From assembly GCA_963663965.2 (NCBI GenBank), contig CAXXFK010000015.1, forward strand, positions 96,001-160,000: a stretch of DNA of 64,000 bases, given 5' to 3'. How positions within the stretch are numbered: position 1 is the stretch's first letter; each line of letters begins with the position of its first letter. Source of the stretch: Sedimentisphaerales bacterium (lineage in GTDB: Bacteria > Planctomycetota > Phycisphaerae > Sedimentisphaerales > SM23-30). The notes beneath the pieces were generated by a model. It ran no database searches and was not told where the DNA came from. It worked only from the letters and a program-made list of their open reading frames with translations. Of the stretch, positions 2,628 through 59,557 are shown piece by piece. Made by a program: the position numbers and the translations under genes.

Positions 2628-2836
2628 TATGATCTCTTTCTGGTCAGCCCTTATATTAAAGCTATTTTGGAAATATAAGATTCTATCATGGCAAAATCCA
2701 ATAAGTCGAGATCGTTGCGGTAATATGGAGGCGTACAATATCAAATAGTATGCAAATTTAAACTTTAAAATAACTTACAATTCGGTAAAATCATTATAAT
2801 TCAATTATGGCCACCCCTTTAAAAAAGGATTTGTCT

Positions 2837-4339
2837 ATGTATTTGTTTGGTTACGATATTGGAAGTTCTTCGATCAAAGCCACCCTTCTGAACGGTGAAA
2901 CGGGTGAGGTTGTCGCAACAGCGACCTCGCCGTCGGTTGAAATGGAGATTATGGCTCAGCGTCCGGGATGGGCGGAGCAGGAACCGGAAACCTGGTGGCG
3001 CCATGTTCAAAAAGCTACTGCCCGGATTCGGGAGAAAGCACCCCAAGCGCTGGCTGATACCCGAGCTATCGGGATTTCCTATCAGATGCACGGTCTGGTC
3101 ATTGTGGACAAAAATGGCACACCGTTACGTCCATCGATTATCTGGTGCGACAGTCGCGCCGTATCGATCGGGAATGAGGCCAATATGGCCATGGGTCCCA
3201 AAACCTGTCTGAAACGATTATTAAATTCGCCCGGTAATTTTACCGCATCCAAGTTGAAATGGGTTAAAGAGCATGAGCCGGCGATTTTTTCTCAAATTCA
3301 TAAAGCCATGCTTCCCGGCGATTACATAGCCATGAAACTCACCGGATTAATCCGTACGACACCATCGGGCTTATCGGAAGGCATATTATGGGATTACGAG
3401 ACCCATGGGCCGGCCCAGATGGTTTTAGATCATTATGGCATACCCGGTGAAATGCTGGCAGAACTGTGTGATACATTCAGTATTCAAGGTGAACTTAGCA
3501 AGACGGCGGCTGAAATACTTGGGATGAAAGCGGGGATTCCCATATCGTATCGAGCCGGCGATCAGCCTAATAATGCCTTGTCACTCAATGTGCTGGAACC
3601 TGGAGAGATTGCCGCAACCGCTGGCACTTCCGGCGTCGTTTATGGCGTTGGCGATCAACCCAGTTACGATGAACAATCCCGGGTTAACAGCTTTCTACAT
3701 GTTAATCATCATGATAATGCCGCCCGGCTGGGTGTATTGCTTTGCGTATCGGGAACGGGCATATTAAACAGCTGGCTGAAACATCAGGTCGTCAGTGACA
3801 GCCTGGATTATCCAGCAATGAACGAACTGGCCGACAAGATTCCCGCGGGTTCCGATGGTCTGGTGGTGCTGCCATTTGGCAACGGAGCGGAACGCACTCT
3901 TGGCAACCAGGATATTGGTGCCCATATCAGCGGCCTTAATTTTAATATTCATACCCGCGCACATTTATTGAGGGCGGCCCAGGAAGGCATTGTATTCGCA
4001 TTGAATTATGGTCTGGATATCATGAAGGACATGGGACTCACAATCAATACGATCCGTGCGGGCCATGCCAATATGTTCCTGAGTCCTATTTTCGCCTCCA
4101 CCTTTGCTACATTAACCGGCGCGCGTATTGAATTATATAATACGGATGGATCGCAGGGCGCCGCCCGAGGCGCGGGCTTTGGCGCGGGCCTTTACGGGAC
4201 GCTGTCCGAAGCGTTTCATGGCCTGACCTCGGTAAAAACGATTGATCCGGTTTCCGCCCAGCAAACCCATTGCCTGGCCGCATACGATAAGTGGCTCATC
4301 GCCTTAAAAAACCTATTGAATAATCCTTATTCATCCTGA
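2837..4339 (+). CDS. xylB: xylulokinase (FGGY carbohydrate kinase)
   Basis: GYDIGSSSIKA, GISYQMHGLV, IIWCDSR, AGDQPNNA; AAGGA RBS before ATG 2837. Confidence 0.85.
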   Translation: MYLFGYDIGSSSIKATLLNGETGEVVATATSPSVEMEIMAQRPGWAEQEPETWWRHVQKATARIREKAPQALADTRAIGISYQMHGLVIVDKNGTPLRPSIIWCDSRAVSIGNEANMAMGPKTCLKRLLNSPGNFTASKLKWVKEHEPAIFSQIHKAMLPGDYIAMKLTGLIRTTPSGLSEGILWDYETHGPAQMVLDHYGIPGEMLAELCDTFSIQGELSKTAAEILGMKAGIPISYRAGDQPNNALSLNVLEPGEIAATAGTSGVVYGVGDQPSYDEQSRVNSFLHVNHHDNAARLGVLLCVSGTGILNSWLKHQVVSDSLDYPAMNELADKIPAGSDGLVVLPFGNGAERTLGNQDIGAHISGLNFNIHTRAHLLRAAQEGIVFALNYGLDIMKDMGLTINTIRAGHANMFLSPIFASTFATLTGARIELYNTDGSQGAARGAGFGAGLYGTLSEAFHGLTSVKTIDPVSAQQTHCLAAYDKWLIALKNLLNNPYSS

Positions 4340-5145: not shown

Positions 5146-5388
5146 ATTAGGCAAAAAAGGGACAGTAAACATTTTATGCACCACTTTCTTTAGTTTTATT
5201 CTTCTTCGGCCAGCCGGCCTCGCCATCCTATCCCGGGCACCTTCAAGCGCAGCAAAGCGAAGCGTGTGGGTGCCTGACACGTCATTTCCAATCATAATAC
5301 CATCTCTATTAAAAAACAAAACATCACACGCAATGCCACCCTCCCCCATTTTGCATTCTGCATTTTACATTTTCAATTCCTTTTCTCC

Positions 5389-5490
5389 ATCCTGTCAATC
5401 AGCTGAAAGTCCCGATCGTTCGGGATGATCCTGTCTAAATGGCTGTTAATCTTTGTGGCATGGTGGCTTCGTGTGAAACCGGCTGTTAAC
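5389..5490 (+). repeat. dispersed repeat module shared with the 57.26-57.32 kb region
   Basis: ATCCTGTCAAT..GCTGAAAGTCCC..CGGGAT.ATCCTGTCTAAA.GGCTGTTA here and at about 57262-57321; followed by AAACCGGCTGTTA. Confidence 0.85.
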
Positions 5491-5496
5491 GGCAAT

Positions 5497-5730
5497 TCAC
5501 CTCCGCCGCATAAATCGCCAGTAAATCAAAACAAACACCCCACCCTGTACCAAAGCGGCTAATCCAAGCACAAGACCATAAACATAAAATTTCTGCGTTG
5601 CCAATGTATCATCAGAACCCGGATGCGCGTTCATCCAGACACTCCAGGCTATCCAATAAAACAGCACCCCATCCACAATCAAAGAAATCACCGCCCATAA
5701 ACTCACAATAGTACCCACAGATATTTTCAT
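5497..5730 (-). CDS. small membrane protein with two predicted TM helices
   Basis: Two hydrophobic segments and a basic C-terminus (WRFMRRR); GGGGA upstream. Confidence 0.6.
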   Translation of the reverse strand: MKISVGTIVSLWAVISLIVDGVLFYWIAWSVWMNAHPGSDDTLATQKFYVYGLVLGLAALVQGGVFVLIYWRFMRRR

Positions 5731-5951
5731 CAGCAAAATCCCCTATAAATCCAAACTGGTAAAAAATATCCCGATCAATCCATCATCCGCAATCACCATC
5801 GCCAAAGCCCTTTCCATAAACATCAAATCCTCAATAACATTCTGAAAATCAACTCTACCGCCCACCCCCGCAATATTCAACCACAAATCAATAAAATTTG
5901 ATCCCATCCCCGGCCCTGCCAGTTTTATCAAAATAATATATAATAATACAT

Positions 5952-5980
5952 TTGACATATTTCAAACACAACACTATAAT
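5952..5980 (+). promoter_or_regulatory. consensus sigma70-type promoter
   Basis: TTGACA (5952-5957), 17 bp spacer, TATAAT (5975-5980). Confidence 0.75.
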
Positions 5981-6122
5981 ATCCCAGATCGGTTGCGTTC
6001 CCAGAAACTAACAAGAACCAAAAACAAAAACAGCCCCATAATCTCGCTCTTTAAAAATTAAATAATCCTAACATCTGGGCCGCCCATCTAGCGCTGCACC
6101 CCTGGCCGGCCAACCACCAACT

Positions 6123-6366
6123 CCAAACGAACCCAATCCACCTTTTTAAGCCTTAACTATCTATAATAAAACATATTACATCATTTTTCCCGTATCAGAA
6201 TTTTCCCCCTATGTTCCCACACCTATCCATCACTCCCGCCTTAACAAAACCGGCTATTACCCCAACCCGAAACCACCCCACCCGCTGCCATAGCCCAGCC
6301 ACCCCCAATCCAAACGAACCCAACACCTCCAAAAACCATCATAACTACCCATATATAAATATCTTA
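6123..6366 (+). repeat. two copies of bipartite motif CCAAACGAACCCAA-N17/18-TAAC-N18-TTA
   Basis: Copies at 6123-6178 and 6310-6366; a lone CAAAACGAACCCAA also at 6562-6575. Confidence 0.85.
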
Positions 6367-6593
6367 TCACGCATATCTTTTATCAGTGTCTATTCGTGTG
6401 AATTCGTGGTTCACTTCTCGCCCCCGTTACTACCAATCTGACTGTATCTCTTCATAGCTTCGTGCCTTCGTGTGAAATCTTTTTCTTCGGTTGCGTTTCG
6501 ACCGCCCGCGTGGTTAATCTTGATTTTCCACCAGAAATCGCTATCATAAACCTTTTTACCTCAAAACGAACCCAACCCCAAGCGAGAGTACCC

Positions 6594-9131
6594 ATGACCA
6601 GCGAACCGACCGGCAGTTACAACTTCAACCAGATCGAAAAGAAATGGCAGACCTTCTGGGAAACCAACAAAACCTTCCAGGCCCTCGACAACTGCGATAA
6701 ACCCAAATATTACGTGCTGGATATGTTCCCCTATCCCTCCGGCGAAGGCCTCCACGTCGGCCACCCCGAAGGTTACACCGCCAGCGATATCGTCGCCCGC
6801 TACAAACGCATGAAAGGCTTTAACGTCCTGCACCCCATGGGTTACGATGCCTTCGGCCTGCCCGCCGAACAGTTCGCCGTCAAAACCGGCACCCATCCCG
6901 CCATCACTACCGAAAAAAACATCAACCGCATCCGCGAACAGATCAAGAGCCTCGGCTTCAGCTACGATTGGGACCGCGAGGTTGACACCACCAGACCCGA
7001 CTACTTCCGCTGGACCCAGTGGATCTTCCTCAAACTCTACAACAGCTGGTACGACCCCGAACTCCAAAAAGCCCGTCCCATCGCCGAACTGCCCATCCCC
7101 ACCGGCCTCACCGAAAAAGAAAAACAAGACTATATCGCCAATAAACGCCTCGCCTACGAAGCCGAAACCCCCGTCAACTGGTGCCCCGAACTCGGAACCG
7201 TGCTGGCCAACGAAGAAGTCATCGGCGGCGTCAGCGAACGCGGCGGCCACCCCGTCATCCGCAAACCCATGCGTCAATGGATGTTGCGTATCACCGCCTA
7301 CGCCGAACGCCTGATTGATGACCTCGCCGACCTCGACTGGTCCGATGGCATCAAAAAGCTCCAGACCGACTGGGTCGGTAAAAGCATCGGCGCCGAAGTC
7401 GATTTCGCCCTCGATGGCTACGACGAGATCATCACCGTCTTCACTACCCGCCCCGACACCCTGTTCGGCGCCACCTACATGGTATTATCACCCGAACATC
7501 CGCTGGTTGATAAAATCACCACCCCCGATCAACTCCAAGCCGTCAAAGCGTATCAGGTGGAAGCCTCCCACAAAAGCGACCTCGACCGCACCGACCTGGC
7601 CAAAGACAAAACCGGCGTCTTCACCGGCGCCTATGCCATCAACCCGGTAAACGGCAACAAGATCCCCATCTGGATCAGCGATTACGTCCTGATCAGCTAC
7701 GGTACCGGCGCGATCATGAGCGTCCCGGCCCACGATGAACGCGATTTCGAATTCGCCACCAAGTTCAACCTGCCTATCATCCAGGTCGTTCAGCCGCCGG
7801 CCGAAACCAACTTTGAAGGCGAATGCTTTACCGGAAACGGTACCGCCATCAACTCCGGCGAATTCAACGGCTTATCCACCCCGGAATTCAAAAAGAAAAT
7901 CACCGCCTGGCTCACCGAAAACAAACTCGGATACGAAGCCATCAACTACAAACTCCGCGACTGGCTCTTCAGCCGCCAACGCTACTGGGGCGAACCCTTC
8001 CCCATCGTCCATGCCGAAGATGGCGAAGTCATCGCCCTGGATGAATCCGATCTGCCCGTCACCCTGCCCGAAGTCGAAAATTACAAACCCAGCGGCACCG
8101 GCGAATCCCCCCTGGCCAACATCCCAGAGTGGCTCTACTTCGAATACCAGGGCCGCAAGGTACGCCGCGAAACCAATACCATGCCCCAATGGGCCGGCAG
8201 TTGCTGGTACTACCTGCGTTATATCGATGCCCATAACAATACCGCCCCATTCGACGCCAAAAAAGAACAATACTGGATGCCGGTCGACCTCTACATCGGC
8301 GGCGCCGAACATGCCGTCCTGCACCTGCTCTATTCCCGTTTCTGGCACAAAGTCCTGTTCGATCTCGGTATCGTCAGCACCCGCGAACCCTTCCAGAAAC
8401 TGGTCAACCAGGGCATGATCCTCGGCAGCGACGGCCAGAAAATGAGCAAAAGCCGCGGCAATGTGGTCAACCCCGACCATGTCATCAACTCATACGGCGC
8501 CGATTCCATGCGGCTCTACGAAATGTTCATGGGCCCGCTCTCCGCCAACAAACCCTGGAGCATGCAGGGGGTCGAAGGGGTGCACCGCTTCCTCCAGCGC
8601 GCCTGGCGCCTCATCGTCGACGAAGAAGGCAATCGCCTTCCCGCCGTACAGGATGTCGAACCCAATGATCCCGAACTGCGCGTCCTGCACAAAACCATCA
8701 AAAAAGTCTCAGAAGACATCGAAAATTTCGGTTTCAATACCGCAATCTCGCAAATGATGATCTTCGTCAATGAATACATGAAACTCACGGTTCGCCCCCA
8801 AAAACCGTTGGAACAATTTGTCCTGCTGCTGGCGCCCTTTGCCCCGCATATCGCCGAGGAACTCTGGCAGTATCTGGGTCATTCCAATACCCTCGCCTAC
8901 GAACCCTGGCCGCAATACGACCCGGCCCTGACCATTGATCCGGAAATCGAAATCGTCATCCAGATCAATGGCAAAGTTCGTGACAAATTCATGGTCCCCG
9001 CCGACGCCACCGAAGAAGTGATCAAAGAAAACGCGCTTAATAGCGAAAAAATCACCTCCCTGCTCGAAGGCAAAACCATCCGCAAAGTTATCGTAATCAA
9101 AGGCCGCCTGGTTAATATCGTGGCCAATTAA
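6594..9131 (+). CDS. leuS: leucine--tRNA ligase
   Basis: [16 protein letters not shown] (HIGH motif), [10 protein letters not shown] editing domain, [16 protein letters not shown]; start trimmed to MTSEP. Confidence 0.98.
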
Positions 9132-9172
9132 GTTTTAAATATCGCAACCCATTGAATAGAATGGAGTAAAGT

Positions 9173-10417
9173 ATGTCGCTGTCATCTCTTGATCAACAAA
9201 TGATCGACAAGTTAAAATCGTTGGCCGGCCAGAAAGGCCTGGATATATCAGGCGGTACCGTCCGACGCAGTTCATCCCGGTTCTGTTTCGGAGTGGAGCA
9301 CGGAGACTATAACGGAACGGAACTTTTCGGTGTAGGGACCGACCGCTTCATCTGGATGGGATACAAACCCAACGGCACCAATCGCGTTCGACTGTACAGC
9401 GACAATTTCCCCAAAGATGGCATCGTTGAATTTGAAATCGGCAATGTCCCCGCCCCCCAATCTCCCGAAACCGCCGATACCTGGGCGCGTTTTCCCTACG
9501 GCGTTGATTATATCCTTCGGGAAGAAGGCTACACCCTCAACGCCGGCTTCGATGCCGTCCTCTACGGCAATATTCCCGGCGGCGGCATGAGCCGCAGCGC
9601 CTCACTGGCTCTCAACCTGATCCTGACCGTCATGGAAGTGAACAACATCAAGCCCAAAAACGATTTCGATGTGGTACTCCTGGCCCAGAAAGTCGAAAAC
9701 ATCTATATCGGTTCACCCTGCGGCCTGCTCGATCAAATTATGATCATGTTCGCGCGCGAAGGTATGGGCACCCATTACGATCCGCAAACCAATGATATCA
9801 AATACGTTCCATTGGGCAGCGGCGCCGAAGATTTCCGCATCGTCGTCATGGATACCGGCACCGTTCGTCCCGGTCTCGAAAAATCAACTTACAAAATCCG
9901 CCGCACCGAATGCGACAGCTTTGCCGAACAGCTCAGTAAAGACACTAACGGCAAAATCAGTAAATTGGCCCACATTCGCGATGAAGCCACCTATAACGAA
10001 ATCATGGCAAAATACGCCGACAAACCCGAATGGTGCGACCGGTTAAAATATATCTTCGGGGCCCAGACCCGTTTCTATCAGATGCTCGATGCCTGGAAAG
10101 CCGGCAATATCGCCACCGTAGGCAAAATTTTCCGCCAGGACGGCATTGGCCTGCGGGATGACTACGTAATTTCCGGTCCTGAACTCGAAACCATGTGCGA
10201 CCTGGTTCGAACGGTACCCGGCACATTAGGCGAACGTATGTTGGGAGGTGGCGACAAAGGAGCCGCCGGAGCGTTAGTCAAGGCGGATAGTGTTGAGGCC
10301 GTCAAAAATGCCGTGGAAACCGGCTACCCGGCCAGCCGGCCCGATTACGCTGATAAATACGCCGTCCATGTCTGCAAAATTGTGGATGGTATCATAACCT
10401 TCGAAAACAGCCTGTAA
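9173..10417 (+). CDS. divergent galactokinase-family (GHMP) sugar kinase
   Basis: EHGDYNG, GNIPGGGMSRSASL, CGLLDQ, LRDDYVISGPELE, GERMLGGG. Confidence 0.8.
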   Translation: MSLSSLDQQMIDKLKSLAGQKGLDISGGTVRRSSSRFCFGVEHGDYNGTELFGVGTDRFIWMGYKPNGTNRVRLYSDNFPKDGIVEFEIGNVPAPQSPETADTWARFPYGVDYILREEGYTLNAGFDAVLYGNIPGGGMSRSASLALNLILTVMEVNNIKPKNDFDVVLLAQKVENIYIGSPCGLLDQIMIMFAREGMGTHYDPQTNDIKYVPLGSGAEDFRIVVMDTGTVRPGLEKSTYKIRRTECDSFAEQLSKDTNGKISKLAHIRDEATYNEIMAKYADKPEWCDRLKYIFGAQTRFYQMLDAWKAGNIATVGKIFRQDGIGLRDDYVISGPELETMCDLVRTVPGTLGERMLGGGDKGAAGALVKADSVEAVKNAVETGYPASRPDYADKYAVHVCKIVDGIITFENSL

Positions 10418-10440: not shown

Positions 10441-10473
10441 AAAGGCCCGGATGATATTATCCGGGTCTTTTTT
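10441..10473. terminator. intrinsic terminator between convergent genes
   Basis: AAAGGCCCGGAT-GATATT-ATCCGGGTCTTTTTT. Confidence 0.75.
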
Positions 10474-12298
10474 AATCGGTCTTCTCAACCACTTCAATTT
10501 CAAAAGTCGCATCACCCATAACCACCCATTCCGCCCCAACATCCGAACGAAGCAGGGAACGATGCGGATACGACTCAATTTGACGCCGGTCATCTTCCAA
10601 TAAAGCAATCTTGCTCTCCGGCAATCCCGGCAAAGGCTCACCTTCCGGCGCGATACTGTTATCGTTCAAAGCAAGCATCATATACAAACGGTCACGCCGA
10701 AGATTCTGCCTGACCTGCAACGTTTTCATAATTGCCTTGGCGTTTAATGGATTATTCAGCCAGGGCCAGGCTTGCGCGATCATTTGCATGCAAGCCTCAC
10801 GCCCCCCCACCCTGATCTGATATTTACCGGGCTTAATATTCGATGGCAACGCTAAAGAACACGCCACCCGTTTACTGGAGCCATAATCCGGCTCCAATTC
10901 CACAACAGCATGAGCTTCCTCGCCCGGTTTAAAGACCAGTTTATTCAAATCAGCCGCGAGCATATAACCAACACTGTCTTTATCGTCAATCGCCATATCC
11001 AGCGACATCCGCTTCAATTCAACCCGTTGCCAGGGATTATTTAATATTGTCATCACAATCATCATCGTATCTTCAAAAAGATCGTTGCTCGATCGTCCGG
11101 AACTGACATTCTCGAAATCAAGCTTCCCTGACGTCCCAAAGTCCATTTCAATGCGATATTTAAGCGTTACTTCATCTGGCAATGCCCCGGAATATTCCGT
11201 TGCGGCAATCGCGCCAAGCCCGGCAAGTATTGGCGTCAATTGCGGATCACGCACCACTTGCGCATGAAATTCCCGACTGCGCTGATTATATTTCCACAAC
11301 GTTTTTAAATCGATATCTGCCAACTCAATTTTTTGATCAAGCGTGCCATAGACTGCCGCCGCTTCATCCGCCCGTAACACCCCTTTAACTTCCAGAAGCG
11401 AGCCCAGTTTAAACGACATATTCTTACTGTTCACAAAGGTATGGATCGTTCCAGTCCCCATCGGATACCAGACCTGCCCGTTGCCATTCCAGGAATGCCC
11501 GAATCCCCATACCGAATCCCCTCTCACTTCGGTTACAGTCCCCAGCAATGTAGTATTGATATCTCCAATGGATAAAGGGATCACCAAAGCGGATCCGGGT
11601 TCCAGTTTTGACGAACCATCGCCATGGACCAAACCGCCGGTAATACCCTGTAAGTTTATACCCGGCAGCCATTCAGACAGTTTACGAATCGTGTTTTCAT
11701 TAACGCCCCCCACACTCACCGCCAGGGGTAAATTAAACGAACCCGCCATCTGGCTTGGCCGCCCCAATCCACTATCTTGAACAATTCGAGCCAATGTCTC
11801 CCGATCTGCCAGAGTCGATCGCATTAAATTAACGTAAAACGGCTTACCCACTACCGGCGACGCCGATGCCACCTGATGTTTACGGGGTAGATCACCTGTT
11901 TCTTTTACGTCAAGCATCTCCCTGATGGGTGTCACTCCATATAAAGGCTCCTCTCCAAATGCCCAGCCAAAGGACATCGCTCCGGCTAACCGGCCCTCAA
12001 AATAAACCGGCGAGCCACTCACCCCCTGGGTACCCCGGGCCAGATCGAATCGGGGATCTTGACACATCACCAGAAAGGCGTCCCGCCCCGGATCAAATCG
12101 TTTGACCACCGAAACCAGTTCCACATCAAACTTTTCAATCTGTGTCCCTTTGAATATGGTCAGCCCATACCCTTTCATGCCGGGTTTTAGTTCTTCCAGG
12201 TCAATATACCGTTCTGAATCCCAGAATGATCCCGCTGCCTGACACGAAATCGTAATACTCAGGCAAACCAGAACAAAATAAATGCTTCGCTTGCTCAT
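10472..12298 (-). CDS. secreted SpoIVB peptidase S55-domain protein
   Basis: Signal peptide; KPGMKGYGLTIFKG, QGVSGSPVYFEGRLAGAMSFGW, GVTPIREML, GFGHS. Confidence 0.88.
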   Translation of the reverse strand: MSKRSIYFVLVCLSITISCQAAGSFWDSERYIDLEELKPGMKGYGLTIFKGTQIEKFDVELVSVVKRFDPGRDAFLVMCQDPRFDLARGTQGVSGSPVYFEGRLAGAMSFGWAFGEEPLYGVTPIREMLDVKETGDLPRKHQVASASPVVGKPFYVNLMRSTLADRETLARIVQDSGLGRPSQMAGSFNLPLAVSVGGVNENTIRKLSEWLPGINLQGITGGLVHGDGSSKLEPGSALVIPLSIGDINTTLLGTVTEVRGDSVWGFGHSWNGNGQVWYPMGTGTIHTFVNSKNMSFKLGSLLEVKGVLRADEAAAVYGTLDQKIELADIDLKTLWKYNQRSREFHAQVVRDPQLTPILAGLGAIAATEYSGALPDEVTLKYRIEMDFGTSGKLDFENVSSGRSSNDLFEDTMMIVMTILNNPWQRVELKRMSLDMAIDDKDSVGYMLAADLNKLVFKPGEEAHAVVELEPDYGSSKRVACSLALPSNIKPGKYQIRVGGREACMQMIAQAWPWLNNPLNAKAIMKTLQVRQNLRRDRLYMMLALNDNSIAPEGEPLPGLPESKIALLEDDRRQIESYPHRSLLRSDVGAEWVVMGDATFEIEVVEKTD

Positions 12299-15138: not shown

Positions 15139-15156
15139 TAGAAAGCCTGGAATTTT

Positions 15157-17186: not shown

Positions 17187-17197
17187 ACCGATTCCTT

Positions 17198-18198: not shown

Positions 18199-18266
18199 AA
18201 TTAAACTTTTAATTTGCTTTAACTTTATTTAAGTGTATATTAATAATATGAAAGCGAGTAAATAAC

Positions 18267-18913: not shown

Positions 18914-18918
18914 TCATG

Positions 18919-45925: not shown

Positions 45926-46768
45926 ATGCTGAGATTAATAAACAACCTGAAAACCGCCCTGTTACTGGGCTCATTAATGGGATTATTTCTGTTTGCCGGC
46001 GTTATGATCGGCGGCCAGCAAGGGCTGATCGTCGCCTTTATCCTCGGCGGCATGACCAATATTTTCGCTTACTTTTTTTCCGACAAACTTGCCCTGGCCA
46101 CCATGCGCGCCCGCCAGGTCACCGAACACGAAGCCCCCGGCCTGATCCGCCTGGTTCGCGAATTATCCCAGCGAGCCGGTCTGCCCATGCCCCGCGTCTA
46201 TATCTGCCCGCACCAGGCCCCCAACGCCTTTGCCACCGGCCGCAATCCGCGTAACGCGGCCATTGCGGTCACCGAAGGTCTGCTCAGGCTGGTCGACAAT
46301 CAAGAACTGGCCGGTGTCATCGGCCACGAACTGGCCCATGTCAAACATCGAGATATCCTCATCAGCAGTATCGCCGCCACTATCGCCGGTGCGATCAGCG
46401 CCCTGGGTTACCTGTTCTATTTCATCCCAATGGGTGGCGACAACCGTCGCGGTGGTAATCCTCTCGCCGCGTTGCTCATGATTATCCTGGCCCCCTTAGC
46501 CGCCATGCTCATTCAGGCCGCCATCAGCCGCAAGCGGGAATTCAACGCCGACAACTACGGCGCCGAACTGTGCGGCAACCCCAACTATCTGGCCAGCGCC
46601 CTCATCAAACTCCACAACTACAGTCAGCGTATCCCCATGGCCGTCCCCCTCGACAGCCAGCGAAATATGTTTATCGTCGAGCCCTTCACCAGCAAAGAAG
46701 CCCTCAGCCTGTTCGATACCCATCCAAAACTGGAAGCACGCTTACAGGCATTGAACAATATGTCATAA
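45926..46768 (+). CDS. htpX: zinc metalloprotease HtpX (M48)
   Basis: PNAFATGR, HELAH, SRKREFNAD, THP. Confidence 0.95.
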   Translation: MLRLINNLKTALLLGSLMGLFLFAGVMIGGQQGLIVAFILGGMTNIFAYFFSDKLALATMRARQVTEHEAPGLIRLVRELSQRAGLPMPRVYICPHQAPNAFATGRNPRNAAIAVTEGLLRLVDNQELAGVIGHELAHVKHRDILISSIAATIAGAISALGYLFYFIPMGGDNRRGGNPLAALLMIILAPLAAMLIQAAISRKREFNADNYGAELCGNPNYLASALIKLHNYSQRIPMAVPLDSQRNMFIVEPFTSKEALSLFDTHPKLEARLQALNNMS

Positions 46769-46773
46769 TAACG

Positions 46774-49611
46774 TTAGTGTATCTGCCAGAGAACCACATC
46801 TCCCCGGCGCGATGCGGGCACAACCTCCAGATCGACCAGTTCCCCGTTACGGATCTGCCCGCTGACTGTGGTCTTCCTGGGCGCGTGCAGTTTAAAGTCC
46901 GCGTTCCATTCCCCAGGCCAGGCCGGCATCAGGTAGATCGTATCACCCTCAGTCTGCATCAGCATCACCTGCAAGATCCGCATCAATACCCCGCCGTGGT
47001 CCTGATCCGGCACCCAGTCATAATTGGGCCCCCAGAACGCCGGAAACCGTGATTCTTTATGCCAGTTTTTCGCGCGTTTAACCAGCAACTCCCGCGCCTC
47101 ATCCGCCAGGCCAAGCGATGCCATAAACAACTCATCCTGACGCCACCCCTGGTTGCCCCGGTCCCAGCGATGCTGCAAAGCCTCAATCCCCAACTGGACC
47201 GTCGGCTTGGCAAAACTAACCAGCTTGAATGGAAATACCGCATAGAGTTCAGGATTCTCGATATTCCGCTTCATATCAAACAACTCTGCCGGCGCCAGCA
47301 TGGTTTTGCCATCCTGACTGCGCAAAGGTAAATCCGGTATCTTCGCCAGCAAAGTCTGCCAGCGTTGACGCTGCTCCGGCTTTGCCAATCCCTCCGGCAA
47401 ACGCAGCAGACTCTCCAGCACCGCCCGCAACCCGGCCACTTCCGGCATCGGATTTGTACACCGCCACCAGGTTTCCAACGCCTGCGATGGACTCATCACC
47501 AACTTGCCCTCCGGCCCGGTCGGATAGAAATGATTGAAAAACTGGGTCACCTCATCGGCCACCGGAATCACCTTATCTTTAAGAAACGCCACATCCCGGG
47601 TATGCTCAAAATAATCCAGCATCATCCAGGCCAGTTCCAATCCCCCCACCCATTCCCATTTATGCCAGCCGCTTTCCTGCAGCTTATCATCCCGCTCATC
47701 AAAAGGCGTCCAGCCGTACGACTCACTGAACACCGCTCCCCAGAAATAGATACACTCCGGATAATAAGCCCCGCCATGCCTGAAATATCGCCGGGTTCGA
47801 TAGCGGCACACCTCAAATACATCACCGGCATACATATCGAACAACGGTTTCATCATCTCAAAATCGCCCGAAGCACACATACTCAGATACGGCAGCCGGG
47901 TATTCTGCCACCAGTAGCCCGGTCCCCAGCGCCGGTAATCGGCGTCACCCGGCGCGCCGGCATGCGACACAGTAAAAATCGAACCATTAAATTTAATCGG
48001 ATACCGCCCTCGTCCCGCGCAGGCTGTCACAAATCGTTGCAGAATATAACCCCGCGTCACCGCAACCCCATCCCGTTCCACAGACCCAATCTCCTCCGCC
48101 ACCTTCTGGCCGTTATGGAACATGGCAATCCGACCAGACTGCCGGTCAATCACCGCCGCTACATGATGCCATTGCCCCGCCTCCAGCAAATCGGCCCGGC
48201 TCAGAGTCCCGGCCTGGGTAATCAATCGCAGACTATTACCCGGATACGTATCCAGCAGAAAGCCATCATCCCCCCCCGGTGTGGTTTTATCGACAATCCG
48301 CCCGCCGCCTCGCCCCATTTTTTCCGGCCGAACCCACGCCTCCAGACTCAGCTGCTCCAATTCATCCACCTCCCGGAGCGCCTCCAATTCCAATCCAATA
48401 GCCACCGCCGTCTGACAGTCCAGAACCCCCTTCTTGCTTGTCAGATTCTGACGCCGATCACCCGCCAGCGCCTTAATCTCCTCATCGGTCAATGCACCCT
48501 TAAACAGCGTCACCCGGCCGATCTGTCCGGCAAAACGCTCTCCCCCATGCTGACTCAAACCGATTCGCACCGCATGCTCACTGGGCCGCATCAGGGCCGG
48601 CGGCAACGACGTCCCACCTGATTCCACATAGATCCAGCTCCGATCCCAGAAATCCGACCACCATTGCCGATGTCGACGCCAACGCCCCTCATACGGAATC
48701 GCCTCAACTTCAGCAATAATAGCCTCCAGTTCCTTCTGCCAACCCTCCGGCTTACTGGGATGACTCGTCAGCACATAAACCGACAACTGCTGCCTCCGGG
48801 CCGGCTCCACGCGTAACGTACGATCATCCACCCTTTCGCCCGCATTGCCGCTGGTCACCATCGCCCCAAAAATCCGATCCAGCAGCGGATCTGTCATCTG
48901 ATAACCGGCCAAACCCTGTATCCCCATCGTCAATTCCGGGCCCACTGATTTCGTATTATGATGATACCAGCCGATCCGCCCTTTCTGCCCGCTCATCACC
49001 CTGTCCGGCTCAACCACCGTCGGCCCATGCACTCCCTCCGGCCGGCTGCGATCCAGCATCACATCGCTCACCTCCACGGATGGCAATAACATCGGCTCAT
49101 TCCGCCACAACTCGATCCGGGCTGTCACTTCCAAAGGCTCATTGCTCTCACAATCCACACACACCACCGGATGATTCGCGTCAACCCACACCATCAATTT
49201 AACCCGGCTCTCACCACTCCCATAATCAACCTCAACAGCCCCCGTCTTCAGATTCAATCGCTGCTGAAACGCTGTCATCGGCGGCGCCGGACTCAAACTC
49301 ACTCGCAATCGCCCCACCTTCAACAACCGCCCGTTATCACCCCAGCTATCCGTTTTTGAAATATAAAACAACAGATCGCCATTGGGTTCTGTCCACACAT
49401 TCAGCCCGATATCACCATTCCCCAACGGCATGGAATCATCCACCCCTTCTCCCGGACTGTCCCATACCACATCGTAACTGGACAACCGGTTAAATGCCCC
49501 AGCGCCCCAGACATCCGTTTCCAGCAACAAACGCCCCGGCCCGCCGATTGCCAATAGAACCACACCGGCCCAAAACCAACCCCAAACAGACTTAATCTTC
49601 ATCAATTGCAT
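46774..49611 (-). CDS. secreted DUF5703/GH95-like glycoside hydrolase with an inserted LamG-like domain
   Basis: SMPLGNGDIG, PIKFNGSIF, WWQNTR, ENPELYAVFP, PDQDHGG, LMPAWP. Confidence 0.8.
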   Translation of the reverse strand: MQLMKIKSVWGWFWAGVVLLAIGGPGRLLLETDVWGAGAFNRLSSYDVVWDSPGEGVDDSMPLGNGDIGLNVWTEPNGDLLFYISKTDSWGDNGRLLKVGRLRVSLSPAPPMTAFQQRLNLKTGAVEVDYGSGESRVKLMVWVDANHPVVCVDCESNEPLEVTARIELWRNEPMLLPSVEVSDVMLDRSRPEGVHGPTVVEPDRVMSGQKGRIGWYHHNTKSVGPELTMGIQGLAGYQMTDPLLDRIFGAMVTSGNAGERVDDRTLRVEPARRQQLSVYVLTSHPSKPEGWQKELEAIIAEVEAIPYEGRWRRHRQWWSDFWDRSWIYVESGGTSLPPALMRPSEHAVRIGLSQHGGERFAGQIGRVTLFKGALTDEEIKALAGDRRQNLTSKKGVLDCQTAVAIGLELEALREVDELEQLSLEAWVRPEKMGRGGGRIVDKTTPGGDDGFLLDTYPGNSLRLITQAGTLSRADLLEAGQWHHVAAVIDRQSGRIAMFHNGQKVAEEIGSVERDGVAVTRGYILQRFVTACAGRGRYPIKFNGSIFTVSHAGAPGDADYRRWGPGYWWQNTRLPYLSMCASGDFEMMKPLFDMYAGDVFEVCRYRTRRYFRHGGAYYPECIYFWGAVFSESYGWTPFDERDDKLQESGWHKWEWVGGLELAWMMLDYFEHTRDVAFLKDKVIPVADEVTQFFNHFYPTGPEGKLVMSPSQALETWWRCTNPMPEVAGLRAVLESLLRLPEGLAKPEQRQRWQTLLAKIPDLPLRSQDGKTMLAPAELFDMKRNIENPELYAVFPFKLVSFAKPTVQLGIEALQHRWDRGNQGWRQDELFMASLGLADEARELLVKRAKNWHKESRFPAFWGPNYDWVPDQDHGGVLMRILQVMLMQTEGDTIYLMPAWPGEWNADFKLHAPRKTTVSGQIRNGELVDLEVVPASRRGDVVLWQIH

Positions 49612-49751
49612 GGCTATTCTCCATTTACTGGTCAGGTAGTCAATTTCCGTACCCTGACTGTCATCGGCTTATTAGATTAACACCCAATAGTAACCCAACA
49701 GGCAACTTGTGGCAAACTAAAAGCGTCTGACCATTATGAGAATAACCGGCC

Positions 49752-52700
49752 TTAAAGCGACGTGTTAAGCCAGTTCGTTATCATAGCATCCACATCAGTC
49801 CACTGAAAGGCCGCCAGCCAGCTCTCGCTCAATTTCTCCCAGTCAGGCAGATTCACCCAGCCATCGATATTGATATCGCCCCGATAATAAAACGCGGCCG
49901 CCTCCTGCGATGCCTCCGACTCATTCCAGGCGGTATCCAGCGCGCGAACAATGTAGTAGTAATTTTGACCGGCCATCGTCTCGGTATCCCGATAGGAACT
50001 GTCCGTAACCTGAGCGGCAATCAGACTGGGCAAAACGCTGCCCGGAGTCTCCGTTCGATAAACGTTATACCCCGCGATATCGCCTTCCGGATTATTATCC
50101 CAGTCCAGCTCGATTGCCCCACCCGCCGGCGCCGCCGACAGATTGCCCGGCGCCCGCAAAGGTGTCCGGTCACGATACAGTACCGCAGCAGGAATCGCCT
50201 GCCTGGCAATCCCCGGTCCCGACCACTGCAATGTCAGCATCGGTTCGGCCCGCCCGCTGCGATAATACAGCCGGAAGGGATGCAACCCGGCCGCCAGCTT
50301 GATCATACCGGCCACTTCCACCCCTGTATGATTAAAATCATCATCGATCACCTGCGAATCATGAATCCTCAGATGAGCGCCCGTATCACAACTCAGATAA
50401 AAATTCCAGTCCCCATCCGCCGGGATATCGATATAACCACACACCAGCAAGCCGGCATCGGTTGGACAGGTTAAATGCTCCAGTCCGATCGCCGCGTCAC
50501 TCCCCGTGGCCACCGGTGTCATATCCCGAAACTCCGGCACCCACGGCCACAATCCCTCATAAGCCTGCCAGACAATCCCCCGCTCCACCGGCACAGTAAC
50601 CGGTGTGACCAGCGCCGAATCATACGGCCGGCTCGCCGTTGAATTGATCTGACGGATTCTCAGCACCTGATCCTTCATCTTCTGCTGCAAGCCGACAAAA
50701 TAAGAGGAGGTCCCCGCCAGGTTGGTCAACTCCCGCGGATCGTTGTTGACATCATAAATACGGAACAAATCATCATGACTCTGGATATTGTATCGCACCC
50801 CCTTATAGCCCTCCTGAAAGATCACTTGCATCTGGTTCCGCTTCAAACCGATATGCGACGCATCAAAATCACTATAACTGGGAGTCGATCCATTATTGTA
50901 ATATTCCACATACACCAGCCCGTCTTTCTGCGCACCTGCCCCCGTCAACGTCGGCCTCAGAGACACACCATCCGAGCGGCACGGTGCCGTCCACCCCGCC
51001 AGTTCCGCAAAGGTCGCCATCCAATCCTGAAACTGCGATGGCTGGTTACTGATCCGATTCCCCCCAATCGTACCCTGCCAGCGCACCAGCGTCGGCATAC
51101 GAACGCCGCCTTCCCACGTATCCCGCTTAATCCCGTCAAATGGACCATACGACTTAAACGCCGTCGGCTCATAATTCACCCCGCTCAGATAAGCCTCCGT
51201 ATGCGGCCCGTTATCCGATGAAAAGACAATCAGCGTTTTTTCATCGATATCCAGATCCTTCAGCGTCTGGATCAGATCGCCCACACAGTCATCCAGCCGC
51301 CGCACCGAGGTCGCGAACCGCACATCCTTATCCGGCCACCCCTTGCCGACATAATCCGGATGCCGCCACGAATCGATAGTGCCCGAGGCCGTATTGATCA
51401 TCGCCCCCGGCGTCCCATTCCATTGCAGTCCGCCCGTCAATCCCCGTCCGTCAGGATACGCCTGCGTCGGTAGCTGCAACGCCGCGTGCGGTGTATCGTA
51501 AGCCAGATAAATAAAGAACGGCTGATTCGGATTCGCCTGCCGATGTTCGGTTATCAGCTTCTTGGCCCGTGCGGTAAACAGATCCGCCGTATAACACTTA
51601 TCCAGCTGCCCGGATATCTCCGTATCGTTGTCCCATAGCTCCTTTTTCGACCGATGGGCCGCACTGTCACCCAGATCCCACGTATTTCCCGGATAATGCT
51701 GGTGACCATCACTATGCCGGACATAACCGAAGAAGAAATCGAATCCCCGTTTGGTGGGATAGGCCGGCCATTCGCTCGGATTACTGCCGCTGCCCTCCAG
51801 GCCATACTTACCGATCAACGAGGTATAATAGCCCGCCGATTTCAGCGTACTGGCCAGCGTAAAGTTATTCTCCAGCGCCTTATCGAACTGGTTGTCGCGC
51901 ACATTGGCATGACCCTGATGCACTCCCAGCAATAGCGAGGCCCGCGACGGCGCGCAGACCGGGGCCGGGCAATAATGCCGGTTCATAATAATGCCGCTCT
52001 GCGCCATCGTATCCAGGTGAGGAGTAAAATGTTTCTTGGTCCCCGGTATCTGGTTCTGAAACAATACCCCCAGGTCGCCATAACCCAGGTCATCACACAA
52101 AATGAAGATAATATTCGGCCGCTCTAGCTTTTCATTCGGATTTTTCGGATCCAGTTGCTTCGATACTTCCATCCCATCCGGCGTTCCATCCCCATCGGTA
52201 TCCGCCTTTTCCGGATCCGTCTTATAAATCTCAAGCTCATCTTTATCGGTCAGCAGATCATGATCGCTGTCAACCGTCGGATCGGCGTCCAGTATCGTAT
52301 CCGAAACCGTTCCCACTACAAAGAACCGCAAATCATCTTTCAACTCATTCGAAGAATTCACATCCGTCCGCTGCGCGATCAGGTTAAAGCCGCCCGGATA
52401 AGTATTCCCCGGACTCAACCGATAGACATCGATCCGCAGATCCTCACCCGCACTCGAATAGTCATCGAAGGATAACAGAAAACCGTATGCCTGGTTCTCT
52501 TTCATCAACAACGGCTCATCAAACCGGAAATGGATGAAATCACCGGCGACACAGGCAAAATTAGCGCCCACCTCTTCACCATGAATCAGAAACTGACTGA
52601 TCCCCGTCCCGTCAAACGGATCGCCATCGGCCACCCCATCGCTGTTCACCCATTGACTGCGGTCATTCCCATCCGCGCTGGGCCATTGGAAAACCCAGAT

Positions 52701-53075
52701 CTTCAACTTCGCATCCGGCCGGGCCGTAAAATCACGCGCGTCATCCGCCACCACCGTAATCTCCCTAACCGCCCAGCCATTTTTCAACCCGGCAATTTCC
52801 GGCATGGTAAACGTCTGACCCCGGTCCGCGTCGGCATTGGAATTCGTGGAATCCGGATCGAACACCGTCGTATACGAATTATCCTGGTTCTGCTCAATAA
52901 TCACATCCCCACTCGGCACAACCCGATCCTTCACCAGCGTCACCTCACCCACCACCACCCCGTTAAACAACAGCCCCAACAGCAACCCAGCAATCATCCA
53001 ACCCCGGCCGCCCCCATTGGTACGCCCAACTTCCGTCCGATATCCAGCATCAAGTTCACAGCTTCGTAACAACAT
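49752..53075 (-). CDS. modular secreted sulfatase (acidic Ca-binding repeats, S1 sulfatase, PA14, FN3, dockerin-like tail)
   Basis: PNIIFILCDDLG, CAPSR formylglycine motif, GKYGL, SDNG; DTDGDG repeat; C-terminal GDINIDGWVNLPDW. Confidence 0.9.
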   Translation of the reverse strand: MLLRSCELDAGYRTEVGRTNGGGRGWMIAGLLLGLLFNGVVVGEVTLVKDRVVPSGDVIIEQNQDNSYTTVFDPDSTNSNADADRGQTFTMPEIAGLKNGWAVREITVVADDARDFTARPDAKLKIWVFQWPSADGNDRSQWVNSDGVADGDPFDGTGISQFLIHGEEVGANFACVAGDFIHFRFDEPLLMKENQAYGFLLSFDDYSSAGEDLRIDVYRLSPGNTYPGGFNLIAQRTDVNSSNELKDDLRFFVVGTVSDTILDADPTVDSDHDLLTDKDELEIYKTDPEKADTDGDGTPDGMEVSKQLDPKNPNEKLERPNIIFILCDDLGYGDLGVLFQNQIPGTKKHFTPHLDTMAQSGIIMNRHYCPAPVCAPSRASLLLGVHQGHANVRDNQFDKALENNFTLASTLKSAGYYTSLIGKYGLEGSGSNPSEWPAYPTKRGFDFFFGYVRHSDGHQHYPGNTWDLGDSAAHRSKKELWDNDTEISGQLDKCYTADLFTARAKKLITEHRQANPNQPFFIYLAYDTPHAALQLPTQAYPDGRGLTGGLQWNGTPGAMINTASGTIDSWRHPDYVGKGWPDKDVRFATSVRRLDDCVGDLIQTLKDLDIDEKTLIVFSSDNGPHTEAYLSGVNYEPTAFKSYGPFDGIKRDTWEGGVRMPTLVRWQGTIGGNRISNQPSQFQDWMATFAELAGWTAPCRSDGVSLRPTLTGAGAQKDGLVYVEYYNNGSTPSYSDFDASHIGLKRNQMQVIFQEGYKGVRYNIQSHDDLFRIYDVNNDPRELTNLAGTSSYFVGLQQKMKDQVLRIRQINSTASRPYDSALVTPVTVPVERGIVWQAYEGLWPWVPEFRDMTPVATGSDAAIGLEHLTCPTDAGLLVCGYIDIPADGDWNFYLSCDTGAHLRIHDSQVIDDDFNHTGVEVAGMIKLAAGLHPFRLYYRSGRAEPMLTLQWSGPGIARQAIPAAVLYRDRTPLRAPGNLSAAPAGGAIELDWDNNPEGDIAGYNVYRTETPGSVLPSLIAAQVTDSSYRDTETMAGQNYYYIVRALDTAWNESEASQEAAAFYYRGDINIDGWVNLPDWEKLSESWLAAFQWTDVDAMITNWLNTSL

Positions 53076-53185
53076 GATCTCTCCAGTTGTGTGAGTGGTA
53101 TATATTTATCTAGATGGTTTCTACTCCTTTATATATCTTCTACCACCCGATCAGGTAACAAAAAACCCAATAATCCCAACATCCC

Positions 53186-53208
53186 GTAGCACGGGCATCC
53201 TGCCCGTG
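53186..53208 (+). repeat. GTAG-type REP-like palindrome
   Basis: GTAG followed by CACGGGCA-TCC-TGCCCGTG. Confidence 0.75.
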
Positions 53209-53299
53209 ATTCCCCCCCCTTCTCTCCTTCCACACCCATCCTGCCCGCGATTTTCTTCAATTCAGGCCAGCCAACCCGCATTTTCCTCTTCCCCACACT

Positions 53300-53324
53300 G
53301 TAGAGACGCAATGCTTGCGTCTCT
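53300..53324 (+). repeat. GTAG-type REP-like palindrome
   Basis: GT-AGAGACGCAA-TGC-TTGCGTCTCT. Confidence 0.75.
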
Positions 53325-53361
53325 GATGCATTCGTTTCATTTCAACTTTCGTATATTCAGT

Positions 53362-57249: not shown

Positions 57250-58450
57250 CCCTTTTCTTAAATCCTGTCAATATGCTGAAAGTCCCTATCTGTCGGGATT
57301 ATCCTGTCTAAAAGGCTGTTATATTTTTTCATCTCCCCACCCGTTCCGGAATTTATCCCGATATTCATCGGGACTCCCTTTACTTACTACACGGTGAAAA
57401 TGCATTTCATTTTCCCCTTCCGTACTACAATCCTTCAATTCTTTGTTATTTTAGCGAAGTTTTTTTGTGTTGGAGAATAGCTGATCTTTTAAAACAAAAA
57501 CTTATATCACTTTGCGCCTTCCGTCAACTATTGTCTCTCCCAGCCGTTGCCCACCCTTTGCACCTTAGCGTCTTTGCGTTAAACCGGCTGTTTTTCTGAA
57601 GCTTGGTGTGAGCTATTTTTGGCGTTGCGGCTTGACCGCCCTAAGTCTTTCCGTGTCTTTCCGTGGTCATATCTTCTTATATTTAAATATCTTAACTAAT
57701 TTTAATCTGCGTCCATCTGAATTCATCTGCGGTTCAAACCGCTGTTATATTTTATTTGAATTCCCTCTTTCTTAAATCCTGTATATCCTGTGATCCTGTC
57801 TAAAATGCTTTATTCTTCCCTGCTCCATAATAACCCCCCGGCCATTACCCTCTATGCCCTCCCAATCTCTGTGGTAAACACCGTCTTAAAAATGTATCCC
57901 GTGGCGCAGCCACCCTTAACCTTTTTGATATACTTTCTGATCCTATCTTATTTTAAAAGCATTTTATTACTGATTTCTTCCGTGTTTTTCCGCGTTTTTC
58001 CGTGGTTATAAGTTATTCTATTATAATTACTTAAATCAGTTTTTATCTGCGTCTATCTGTCCCGATATACATCGGGATATGCGGTTGAATCGGCTGTTAT
58101 ATTTTTTCTTAACCTTCGTGAAGTGCCGCAGGTCGAAAGATCCGCCTCAGGAGGACACCCTTCGTGTAGCCGAAGGTCGAAGATCCGCCTCAGGAGGACG
58201 CTTCGTGGTTAACCCCTGCCTTTAAAAAATTTAACTCGTGGCCCCGCCACTCTTTATTTTCATCCATTTCTCAGTTCTATCTTCTTTGATTTCAACTTCT
58301 TAACCCTGATTTCTTCCGTGTGTTCCGTGTATTCATTGGTCATATCTTCTTATATTTCAATATCTTAACTAATTTTCATCTGCGTCCATCTGCGGATAAA
58401 CCGGCTGTTAATTCTTCCTTTTACCTTCATGCTCTTCATGGTGAAAATTT
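57250..58450 (+). repeat. ORF-poor array of degenerate modular repeats (period about 335 bp) made of triplet micro-repeats
   Basis: TTCCGTG-repeat / 25-bp AT box / ATCTGCG-repeat / GCTGTTA block; ATCTGCG starts at 57705, 58045 and 58378. Confidence 0.85.
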
Positions 58451-59378: not shown

Positions 59379-59419
59379 CATCCCCCAACCACCCGAATCC
59401 CGATGCAAAACGAACCCAA
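59067..59419 (+). repeat. bipartite motif CCAAACGAA(C/G)CCAA-N18-TAAC-N18-TTA, two full copies and one partial
   Basis: 59067-59123, 59250-59306 and CAAAACGAACCCAA at 59406-59419. Confidence 0.85.
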
Positions 59420-59557
59420 CGATAAAAAATAAGGTAACGCCAACCACCACAACCTGACAATCTAACCGCCGTCTTGACCCAGAATTCAAGTCGGCCCGGA
59501 TTATGTGTGCATTGAACTCCTCAAATACGAATTTTATTGAGGGTTTATGTTACCCAT

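What the first reader, a model, noticed from the sequence alone, without database searches (positions are those of the whole stretch)
5480..9900. Patchy, strong strand-composition bias near the repeat loci, independent of gene direction
Seen: the plus strand is C/A-rich and G/T-poor at about 5.5-10 kb, 46-53 kb and 58.6-63 kb (also yebC). Hand counts on chosen 60-nt lines: 7081-7140 C23/G9; 49201-49260 C26/G6; 59101-59160 only 2 G; versus xylB 3001-3060 C18/G15. leuS (plus) favours C/A-ending codons while valS, the sulfatase and the DUF5703 gene (minus) favour G/T-ending codons, which argues against translational selection. Ordinary replication skew should be roughly uniform over 64 kb. Inference: a local strand-specific mutational process, such as prolonged single-strandedness, possibly linked to the polar motifs.
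Basis: partly seen in the sequence, partly recalled or inferred. Interest (0 to 1): 0.75.

Follow-up and report, generated by a model that had tools for sequence, protein, structure and literature searches.

The report
One-way mutation trails from repeated motifs
In this bacterium, about 80 copies of a short, one-directional DNA signal each sit at the start of a trail tens of kilobases long in which one DNA strand has been pushed towards C whichever way the genes point, which suggests many extra start points for DNA copying or repair that have not been described in bacteria.

Summary
The patches are real and independent of gene direction. They belong to a genome-wide sawtooth in GC skew. A polar motif, AAACRAASCCAA (258 sites, 79 multi-copy clusters; 14), often followed by an IHF-like site, marks the steps. 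On the motif strand silent sites gain C over a long upstream tail (decay about 37 kb) and a short downstream one (about 2 kb). Upstream skew has this sign at 67 of 73 clusters. The pattern repeats in a distant genome (r 0.64 upstream, 0.09 downstream; 103), and two other repeat families orient by the same field (83 of 88; 92). Twenty-six clusters carry a gene whose N-terminus matches putative phage small terminases. Against a simple story: the model predicts this window's own contig poorly (r about 0; 65, 69), and a relative with almost no motifs also has a sawtooth. Best reading (0.45): polar start sites of secondary, repair-type forks that expose the other strand. The scan noted similar skew steps with other repeats elsewhere.

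The parts
5347..5490 (+). C/T-rich short-repeat array at the 5' side of motif cluster 1 (7-mer tandem repeats, ATCCTGTC-type repeats)
   Evidence: sequence; families D6, D8, D16
6125..6136 (+). motif core AAACGAACCCAA, copy 1, followed at +30 by the TAAC-N17-NTTA spacer element
6312..6366 (+). motif copy 2 plus IHF-like core at +42 (1 mismatch to the recalled consensus)
6564..6575 (+). motif copy 3, directly before the leuS start codon
6576..9131 (+). leuS; four-fold skew -0.61, C falling from 0.73-0.84 near the cluster to 0.62 at the 3' end
9173..10417 (+). GHMP kinase gene; skew -0.53
10472..12298 (-). peptidase S55-like gene (weak Pfam hit); skew -0.46 on the + strand
2807..4339 (+). xylB-like FGGY kinase; unskewed (-0.07); lies upstream of cluster 1 and of an opposite-pointing cluster 27 kb away (C15:75 kb)
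45926..53075 (.). M48 peptidase (+), DUF5703 gene (-), sulfatase (-): skew -0.49 to -0.58, 6-13 kb upstream of cluster 2, where the genome-wide upstream tail peaks
53185..53325 (+). two GTAG-starting REP-like palindromes at the right edge of the 46-53 kb patch (REP label recalled)
   Evidence: GTAGAGACGC lies on the motif strand in 14 of 18 cases
54584..57103 (-). PASTA/FGE-sulfatase gene, low GC4 (0.51), no skew; probably a recent arrival
57250..58450 (+). C/T-rich array of several short repeat families at the 5' side of cluster 2
58593..59378 (+). family A ORF (261 aa), 14 copies in the genome, no relative found outside it with this query; two motifs inside
59069..59419 (+). motif cluster 2 (cores at 59069, 59252, 59408); first two with a 1-mismatch IHF-like core at +42
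59468..59513 (+). terminal inverted repeat followed by GTGCA, like the 3' ends of family B elements
59997..62960 (-). valS; skew -0.55 on the + strand (G-ending codons)

Best explanation
Each multi-copy module (AAACRAASCCAA, often with an IHF-like site at fixed spacing) marks a polar start point of an occasional, secondary, repair-type replication fork on top of normal oriC replication. SHOWN: the sawtooth, its tie to motif position and orientation, the 37 kb/2 kb asymmetry with the same sign on both sides, the base shift (C gain on the motif strand, equal to G gain with A and C loss on the other strand), and co-orientation of other repeats. INFERRED: a bound protein (for instance the family B product, acting in trans) causes a nick or one-ended break at or just behind the module; the downstream end is resected by AddAB for about 2-4 kb, leaving the anti-motif strand single-stranded; that 3' end invades the sister and drives a fork upstream for tens of kb, again exposing or mis-copying the anti-motif strand (A->G, C->T). 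This one model gives both tails the same sign and different lengths.
For: Kernel -0.29 at 6-12 kb upstream falling smoothly to about -0.05 beyond 60 kb; -0.36 at 0-2 kb downstream and about 0 beyond 4 kb. R2 0.483 against 0.324 for contig only; maxima of 200 position and 200 orientation shuffles 0.381 and 0.448. 67 of 73 measurable multi-motif clusters negative upstream, in all three types (A 11/13, B 23/24, ORF-less 33/36), while B downstream averages +0.02 (9 of 23 negative). Steps over 0.5: 31 up, 2 down; 20 of 33 up-step peaks within 7.5 kb of a cluster against 14% background, 1 of 18 down-steps. 26 of 30 inter-cluster slopes negative. Replication in G031 over 1.2 Mb: r 0.64 upstream, 0.09 downstream, shuffle maximum 0.49, on genes of both strands. 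Repeats R1/R2 follow the nearest cluster they lie upstream of in 83 of 88 cases within 100 kb, against 42 of 60 for the downstream rule, and are 3.5 versus 0.78 per 100 kb at 4-15 kb upstream versus downstream. GC4 rises with the field at matched GC12 (0.69 to 0.77), so this is an added process, not only mixing of fork directions. In complete genome G004 four-fold AT skew follows two halves (-0.14, +0.17) while GC skew does not. AddAB and MutL lie in the window. Break-linked mutation in E. coli falls off to about 60 kb (PMC3607216, abstract).
Against: No break, nick, fork or single-stranded DNA was observed; no nuclease or initiator was identified (family B is all-helical with no fold match). 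G004 has 4 motif copies and no family B gene found, yet shows a clear sawtooth with steps at mobile or low-GC islands. leuS and valS orthologues in 28 and 23 relatives, most of them motif-poor, range from -0.92 to +0.73 and -0.80 to +0.66. Held-out prediction for this contig r -0.04, for the window 0.20; 13 of 33 up-steps lack a cluster within 7.5 kb. The base-shift signature is close to that of the contig background. R1/R2 were picked because they follow local skew, and protein-coding IS families show no consistent orientation. R1 folds better on the motif strand, which would fit exposure of that strand instead. The E. coli hotspots are reported as direction-independent.
Confidence: 0.45

Rival explanations
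1. The steps are made by something else at mobile-DNA hot spots (in situ replication or integration traffic of prophages and islands), and the motif elements are passengers that home to such sites in a fixed orientation.
For: G004 steps at about 715 and 800 kb lie at low-GC islands with a Zot-like ATPase, a primase-like and an integrase-like gene (labels by eye) and no shared motif was found. Low-GC4 genes are enriched 1-6 kb upstream of clusters (30% against 20%). Many repeat families pile up, co-oriented, at the clusters.
Against: It needs a second reason why the long tail is always on the motif's 5' side (67 of 73) and why ORF-less clusters behave alike; no other intergenic 11-mer away from clusters marked a step above 0.21 (1078 tested).
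Confidence: 0.25
2. The modules are pac-like (or oriT-like) sites: the family B product is an orphan small-terminase-like protein that directs helper-phage packaging or transfer of chromosomal DNA in one direction, and the footprint arises when that DNA is repaired or recombined.
For: The family B N-terminus aligns with a phage family (hhalign probability 99.1, 52 columns); 4 of 11 genes following those phage genes hit terminase large subunit PHROGs; 5 of 120 family members weakly hit three small-terminase PHROGs (E 0.002-0.006). Motifs lie in or beside the gene, with an IHF-like site, as for P1 pac inside pacA with repeats and an IHF site (PMC10028697, passages). The decay length is near the 36-45 kb length of the longer viral contigs.
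Against: No headful plateau or step; the decay is smooth. None of the 15 phage loci with the N-terminal match carries the motif. Homology covers about 45 residues only. No convincing large terminase in the genome with two queries. Packaging of double-stranded DNA gives no direct route to a strand-specific footprint.
Confidence: 0.15
3. The elements are rolling-circle (IS91/Helitron-like) units: a nick at the fixed 3' end starts strand displacement through the gene and on into upstream DNA, exposing the anti-motif strand.
For: Family B has a sharp 3' end with a variable-arm inverted repeat (20 of 25 copies z < -1) and a GYGCR-type word (15 of 25), and a ragged 5' end. Direction and strand match read-through from a 3' origin (IS91 polarity recalled).
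Against: No Y2 transposase rang (the control rang nowhere, so inconclusive). Most family A and ORF-less clusters lack the end word yet have the same tail. Skew continues 2-4 kb past the 3' end.
Confidence: 0.1
4. Ordinary causes: horizontally acquired blocks, inversions or mis-joins of a two-replichore chromosome, or translational selection.
For: Aberrant skew can come from inversions or mis-assembly at repeats (10.1101/808410, passages). The 26 family B copies are 89-96% identical and mosaic.
Against: Ramps rather than blocks (26 of 30 slopes negative); steps one-signed (31 versus 2); foreign-looking genes are the unskewed ones; a short-read contig bridges cluster 1; leuS and valS are biased in opposite coding directions; seen in three genomes.
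Confidence: 0.05

Closest known systems
Skew N-domains of the human genome (PMC3320577, passages read)
   Same: Abrupt upward skew jumps with gradual decline between them, read as a gradient of fork polarity from initiation sites.
   Different: Here a bacterium, 50-200 kb domains, each site one-sided (no sign flip at a single cluster), marked by a defined polar motif; GC content rises with the field.
Mutation hotspots at double-strand breaks in E. coli (PMC3607216, abstract and outline)
   Same: Peak within about 2 kb and decay to about 60 kb; resection and repair synthesis.
   Different: There induced, reported independent of replication direction and not a fixed compositional footprint; here one-sided, strand-specific and site-encoded.
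GRINS (PMC8256042, first fifth of the text read)
   Same: Intense skew in repeated, gene-converted DNA (family B copies: 3407 of 4465 site pairs fail the four-gamete test).
   Different: GRINS are about 1 kb duplicated stretches with correlated GC and TA skew; here the skew runs tens of kb into single-copy host genes and AT skew at four-fold sites hardly follows (r 0.15).
Phage P1 pac/PacA and lateral transduction (PMC10028697, passages; lateral transduction papers seen as search listing only)
   Same: Short direct repeats plus an IHF-type site in or near a small-terminase-like gene; one-directional effect on flanking chromosome.
   Different: No large terminase or capsid genes at the elements; no headful step; homology limited to the N-terminus.
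Replication-oriented insertion of IS608 and other IS (PMC5027513 passages; PMC3971601 abstract)
   Same: Repeats R1/R2 are oriented by the local strand field, as IS are by fork direction.
   Different: R1/R2 have no transposase identified (none of 11 Y1 transposase matches within 2 kb) and follow the motif field rather than whole replichores.

Membership tests
GRINS | skew confined to duplicated regions of about 1 kb | tested here: not met
   skew extends into single-copy genes (leuS, valS) and tens of kb upstream
GRINS | intense, correlated GC and TA skews | tested here: not met
   gene-level GC/AT correlation 0.15; AT kernel small
N-domain-type bidirectional origins | abrupt upward jumps with linear decline between | tested here: met
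N-domain-type bidirectional origins | sign inversion across each initiation site | tested here: not met
   same sign 0-4 kb downstream, then about 0; full inversions only at convergent pairs
N-domain-type bidirectional origins | measured initiation (timing, Okazaki polarity) | not testable with these tools
   only contigs available
pac site / small terminase | homology to small terminase | tested here: inconclusive
   N-terminal 52 columns match putative phage TerS; no curated family hit
pac site / small terminase | headful steps in the one-sided gradient | tested here: not met
   smooth decay in 6-kb bins, errors 0.03-0.06
pac site / small terminase | large terminase partner | tested here: inconclusive
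   two weak phrog_2 hits, none with L217 TerL; a helper phage could supply it
IS91/Helitron rolling-circle elements | HUH Y2 transposase | tested here: inconclusive
   PF04986 rang neither here nor in the controls; family B model has no beta-sheet
IS91/Helitron rolling-circle elements | fixed end with subterminal hairpin and short end word | tested here: met
   family B only; not in most other clusters
Chi-like AddAB sites | short, abundant, dispersed polar word | tested here: not met
   12-mer, 258 sites, 79 of 115 loci multi-copy, with a second element at fixed spacing; Chi properties recalled
IHF-bent nucleoprotein sites (oriT, cos, pac, iteron origins) | IHF consensus at fixed distance from the repeats | tested here: inconclusive
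   <=2 mismatches at +42 in 58 of 306 modules and at +47 in 21 of 113 from other genomes, absent in G031; only one HU/IHF-family gene found; consensus recalled
known structured RNA | Rfam match | tested here: not met
   only a tRNA in the window and four loci

The most novel reading that the evidence does not exclude
A very large uncharacterised gene family (34,694 clusters at E<=1e-10) with a small-terminase-like DNA-binding N-terminus, together with its cognate motif-plus-IHF modules, forms selfish chromosomal elements that act as dozens of unidirectional secondary origins or programmed break sites, dividing the bacterial chromosome into N-domain-like polarity domains and re-writing silent sites of core genes.
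Probability: 0.3. Interest if true: 0.92.

Novelty: categorically new. Interest (0 to 1): 0.78.

Why it matters
Bacterial chromosomes are taken to have one origin and two skew halves; departures are usually put down to inversions or assembly error. Here skew is a sawtooth anchored on defined, orientable 12-mers in two distant genomes, so the question whether bacteria use many secondary initiation or programmed break sites becomes directly testable at known coordinates. It would also explain why orthologous housekeeping genes in this lineage have opposite extreme codon biases, warn against using GC skew or codon usage to check or bin such genomes, and give a first functional handle on a huge hypothetical-protein family.

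Tried and rejected
Fold searches with the family B model: no clear match (best Z 7.0 among helical bundles; no viral hit at E<=0.001); this does not show a new fold. Pfam, NCBIfam and PHROGs gave no family for either ORF; ESM Atlas gave only unnamed clusters. Substitution spectra against close relatives: not possible, no same-genus genome; no RNA holder listed; laid contigs gave no strain polymorphism. Paralogue spectrum: rare variants in family B are mostly C>T (35 at 107 four-fold C sites), which shows decay, not the process that restores C. The orientation-shuffle control for asymmetry is uninformative, because a flipped element still gives an upward step; only its R2 was used. An IHF-like core does not separate strong from weak clusters (-0.28 versus -0.25). 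dnaA homologues on C22 and C17 show no skew flip. tRNA orientation is unrelated to local skew (26 of 51); genes lie on the G-rich strand only 54-57% of the time. No shared motif found at the G004 steps. The TTCGTG-type word shows no polarity (42 of 92). G024, G029 and G030 (motif-rich) were not profiled. Ten literature searches found no description of this motif, gene family or a motif-anchored bacterial sawtooth; none searched the motif letters themselves, and the library lacks most subscription journals; no supplements were read.
Full report
Setting. The window is G000:C15:96001-160000 of a 7.24 Mb, 42-contig genome. No call names the organism; homologue labels and gene content suggest a Phycisphaerae planctomycete (inference). 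Genes were called by my own longest-ORF script (4303 ORFs; 3752 of at least 600 nt used; 125 short ORFs at motif clusters dropped before the first fit), so gene-level figures carry some calling error.

1. Observation. Confirmed: hand counts exact, patches at the 95th-98th percentile of 4-kb windows, heterogeneity p 9e-24. At four-fold sites, after removing the average coding-strand bias, genes on both strands show the same + strand C excess of -0.46 to -0.61. yebC is unremarkable. The low-GC PASTA gene between two patches has no skew.

2. The motif. AAACGAACCCAA occurs 136 times; only two positions tolerate change (56 and 40 copies; other single variants 12 or fewer). AAACRAASCCAA: 258 sites, 115 clusters, 79 with two or more copies; reversed-pattern control 9. 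A second element, TAAC-N17-NTTA, sits at exactly +30 in 99 of 303 modules and holds an IHF-like core at +42 (58 of 306 with at most 2 mismatches; +47 in 21 of 113 modules from other genomes; none in G031; consensus recalled). 27 of 30 relatives have 13 or fewer copies; G024, G029 and G030 have 176, 36 and 17.

3. The elements. Clusters fall into three kinds: family A (261-aa ORF, 14 copies, one in the window), family B (279-aa ORF, 26 copies, 92.6% mean identity, strongly mosaic) and ORF-less clusters such as the one before leuS. Similar neighbourhoods are co-oriented with the motif in 99.6% of 6650 BLAST hits. Family B has a sharp 3' end with an inverted repeat whose arms vary together (by eye) and a ragged 5' array of other short repeats. 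Its family is huge (34,694 clusters at E<=1e-10); of the best 80 of 460 genomic loci, 38 have a same-strand motif nearby, 3 only an opposite one and 39 none, and upstream skew is -0.08 to -0.14 with the motif against about -0.02 without (confounded by taxon). Its first 45 or so residues match a phage family lying before a roughly 600-aa gene, a terminase large subunit in 4 of 11 tested; those phage loci lack the motif. The model is all-helical (pLDDT 81.9) with no fold match.

4. Skew and motif. On the motif strand, four-fold sites gain C in a long upstream tail (amplitude -0.29, decay 37 kb) and a short downstream one (decay 1.9 kb); in native-like genes the binned kernel is smooth and is about zero beyond 4 kb downstream. 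The fit beats contig-only and both shuffles; the within-contig correlation is 0.40 (shuffle maxima 0.17 and 0.30), positive in 28 of 30 contigs (parameters fitted on the same genome). 67 of 73 clusters are negative upstream; steps are one-signed and sit at clusters; 26 of 30 intervals ramp downward. The result is a sawtooth. The window's contig is one of the worst fitted (r 0.05; held out -0.04): the leuS and valS patches are longer downstream tails than average, and C15 has a motif-free patch near 175-205 kb. The 46-53 kb patch fits the upstream tail of cluster 2; xylB may be cancelled by an opposite cluster 27 kb away (inference).

5. Signature. With the field, C rises on the motif strand while A, G and T fall; at two-fold sites C/(C+T) rises from 0.34 to 0.52-0.63 on the motif strand and G/(A+G) from 0.40 to 0.48-0.63 on the other; close to the cluster G-to-A is also strong (leuS). 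This reads as A->G and, more weakly, C->T on the anti-motif strand, plus possible transversions; composition cannot give rates. GC4 rises with the field at matched GC12, which simple mixing of fork directions would not give. The signature is similar to that of the contig background apart from T.

6. A second read-out. Of 1078 intergenic 11-mers away from clusters, those of two non-coding repeat families (R1, R2) were most tied to local skew. Of 130 copies, 122 lie more than 4 kb from clusters; their orientation follows the nearest cluster they are upstream of in 83 of 88 cases within 100 kb (3 of 10 beyond), against 42 of 60 for the mirror rule, and in 7 of 7 cases where the motif field outweighs an opposite background. 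They were selected for following skew, so agreement is partly built in; the upstream/downstream contrast and the 4.5-fold density difference are less so. IS orientation is known to follow replication (PMC5027513 passages; PMC3971601 abstract), but the coding IS families here show no consistent bias.

7. Other genomes. G031 (a Phycisphaerales assembly; 1.2 of about 4 Mb read) shows the same sawtooth at amplitudes up to 0.45, with r 0.64 for the upstream and 0.09 for the downstream kernel, on genes of both strands. But the closed genome G004 (0.4 Mb contiguous plus 20 samples read), nearly motif-free and without family B in this search, also has ramps and upward jumps (7 up, 0 down), at mobile or low-GC islands, while its AT skew keeps two halves. 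leuS and valS orthologues vary widely across relatives. So the sawtooth is a lineage trait, superimposed on ordinary replication; the motif marks most steps where it is present but is not required.

8. Mechanism. A single model explains equal sign and unequal length on the two sides: a one-ended break or nick at the module, short resection downstream, and a repair fork running upstream, both exposing the anti-motif strand (0.45). Rivals: passengers at hot spots (0.25), pac- or oriT-like transfer (0.15), rolling-circle read-through (0.10), ordinary causes (0.05). Every molecular step is inferred.

9. Novelty. Ten searches (listed under Tried and rejected) found no account of this pattern. It looks like human N-domains (PMC3320577, passages) and has the length scales of break-linked hotspots (PMC3607216, abstract) but fails a defining feature of each known family tested, or could not be tested. 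Earlier unchecked notes of this scan describe polar repeats at skew steps in unrelated organisms; they are leads, not support. Papers seen: PMC8256042 first part of five; 10.1101/808410, PMC5027513, PMC3320577, PMC10028697 passages; PMC3607216, PMC3971601 abstract and outline; others as search listings only; no supplements.

Noticed in passing
window 13180-25759: mutL (13180-15138) and an addA/addB pair (18919-25759) lie between the two motif clusters.
   Followed up: no
G000, e.g. C1:117560-117740: Repeat R1, 38 copies, a long imperfect hairpin with terminal inverted repeats that folds much better on one strand (-35.5 versus -21.7 kcal/mol as DNA); no transposase found beside it.
   Followed up: partly
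G000, e.g. C40:19415-19530: Repeat R2, 92 copies of about 110 bp ending in a small palindrome, strongly oriented by local skew.
   Followed up: partly
G000:C25:99702-101292 and four more copies: A five-copy 529-aa ORF family (looks like a group II intron reverse transcriptase by eye; not scanned) always lies on the G-rich strand, 5 of 5.
   Followed up: no
G000:C22:55835 and C17:22868: Two DnaA homologues, neither at a skew inversion.
   Followed up: partly
L259 (G004:C1:704-716 kb), L263-L264 (790-803 kb): Sharp skew jumps in a closed, motif-poor genome beside a Zot-like ATPase gene and a primase/integrase-like island (labels by eye).
   Followed up: partly
L217-L231: Uncultured phages whose putative small terminase carries the same N-terminal motif as family B plus a four-cysteine segment.
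   Followed up: partly
window 55463-56142: Four 201-nt repeats: the PASTA domains of a low-GC, unskewed gene.
   Followed up: no
window 63199-63321: tRNA gene followed by a perfect 21-bp inverted repeat and a drop to 33% GC, possibly an island boundary.
   Followed up: no
G024: 176 motif copies but only 2 family B matches, with spacings of 89-103 bp and 10-11 bp multiples: suggests action in trans and helical phasing.
   Followed up: no
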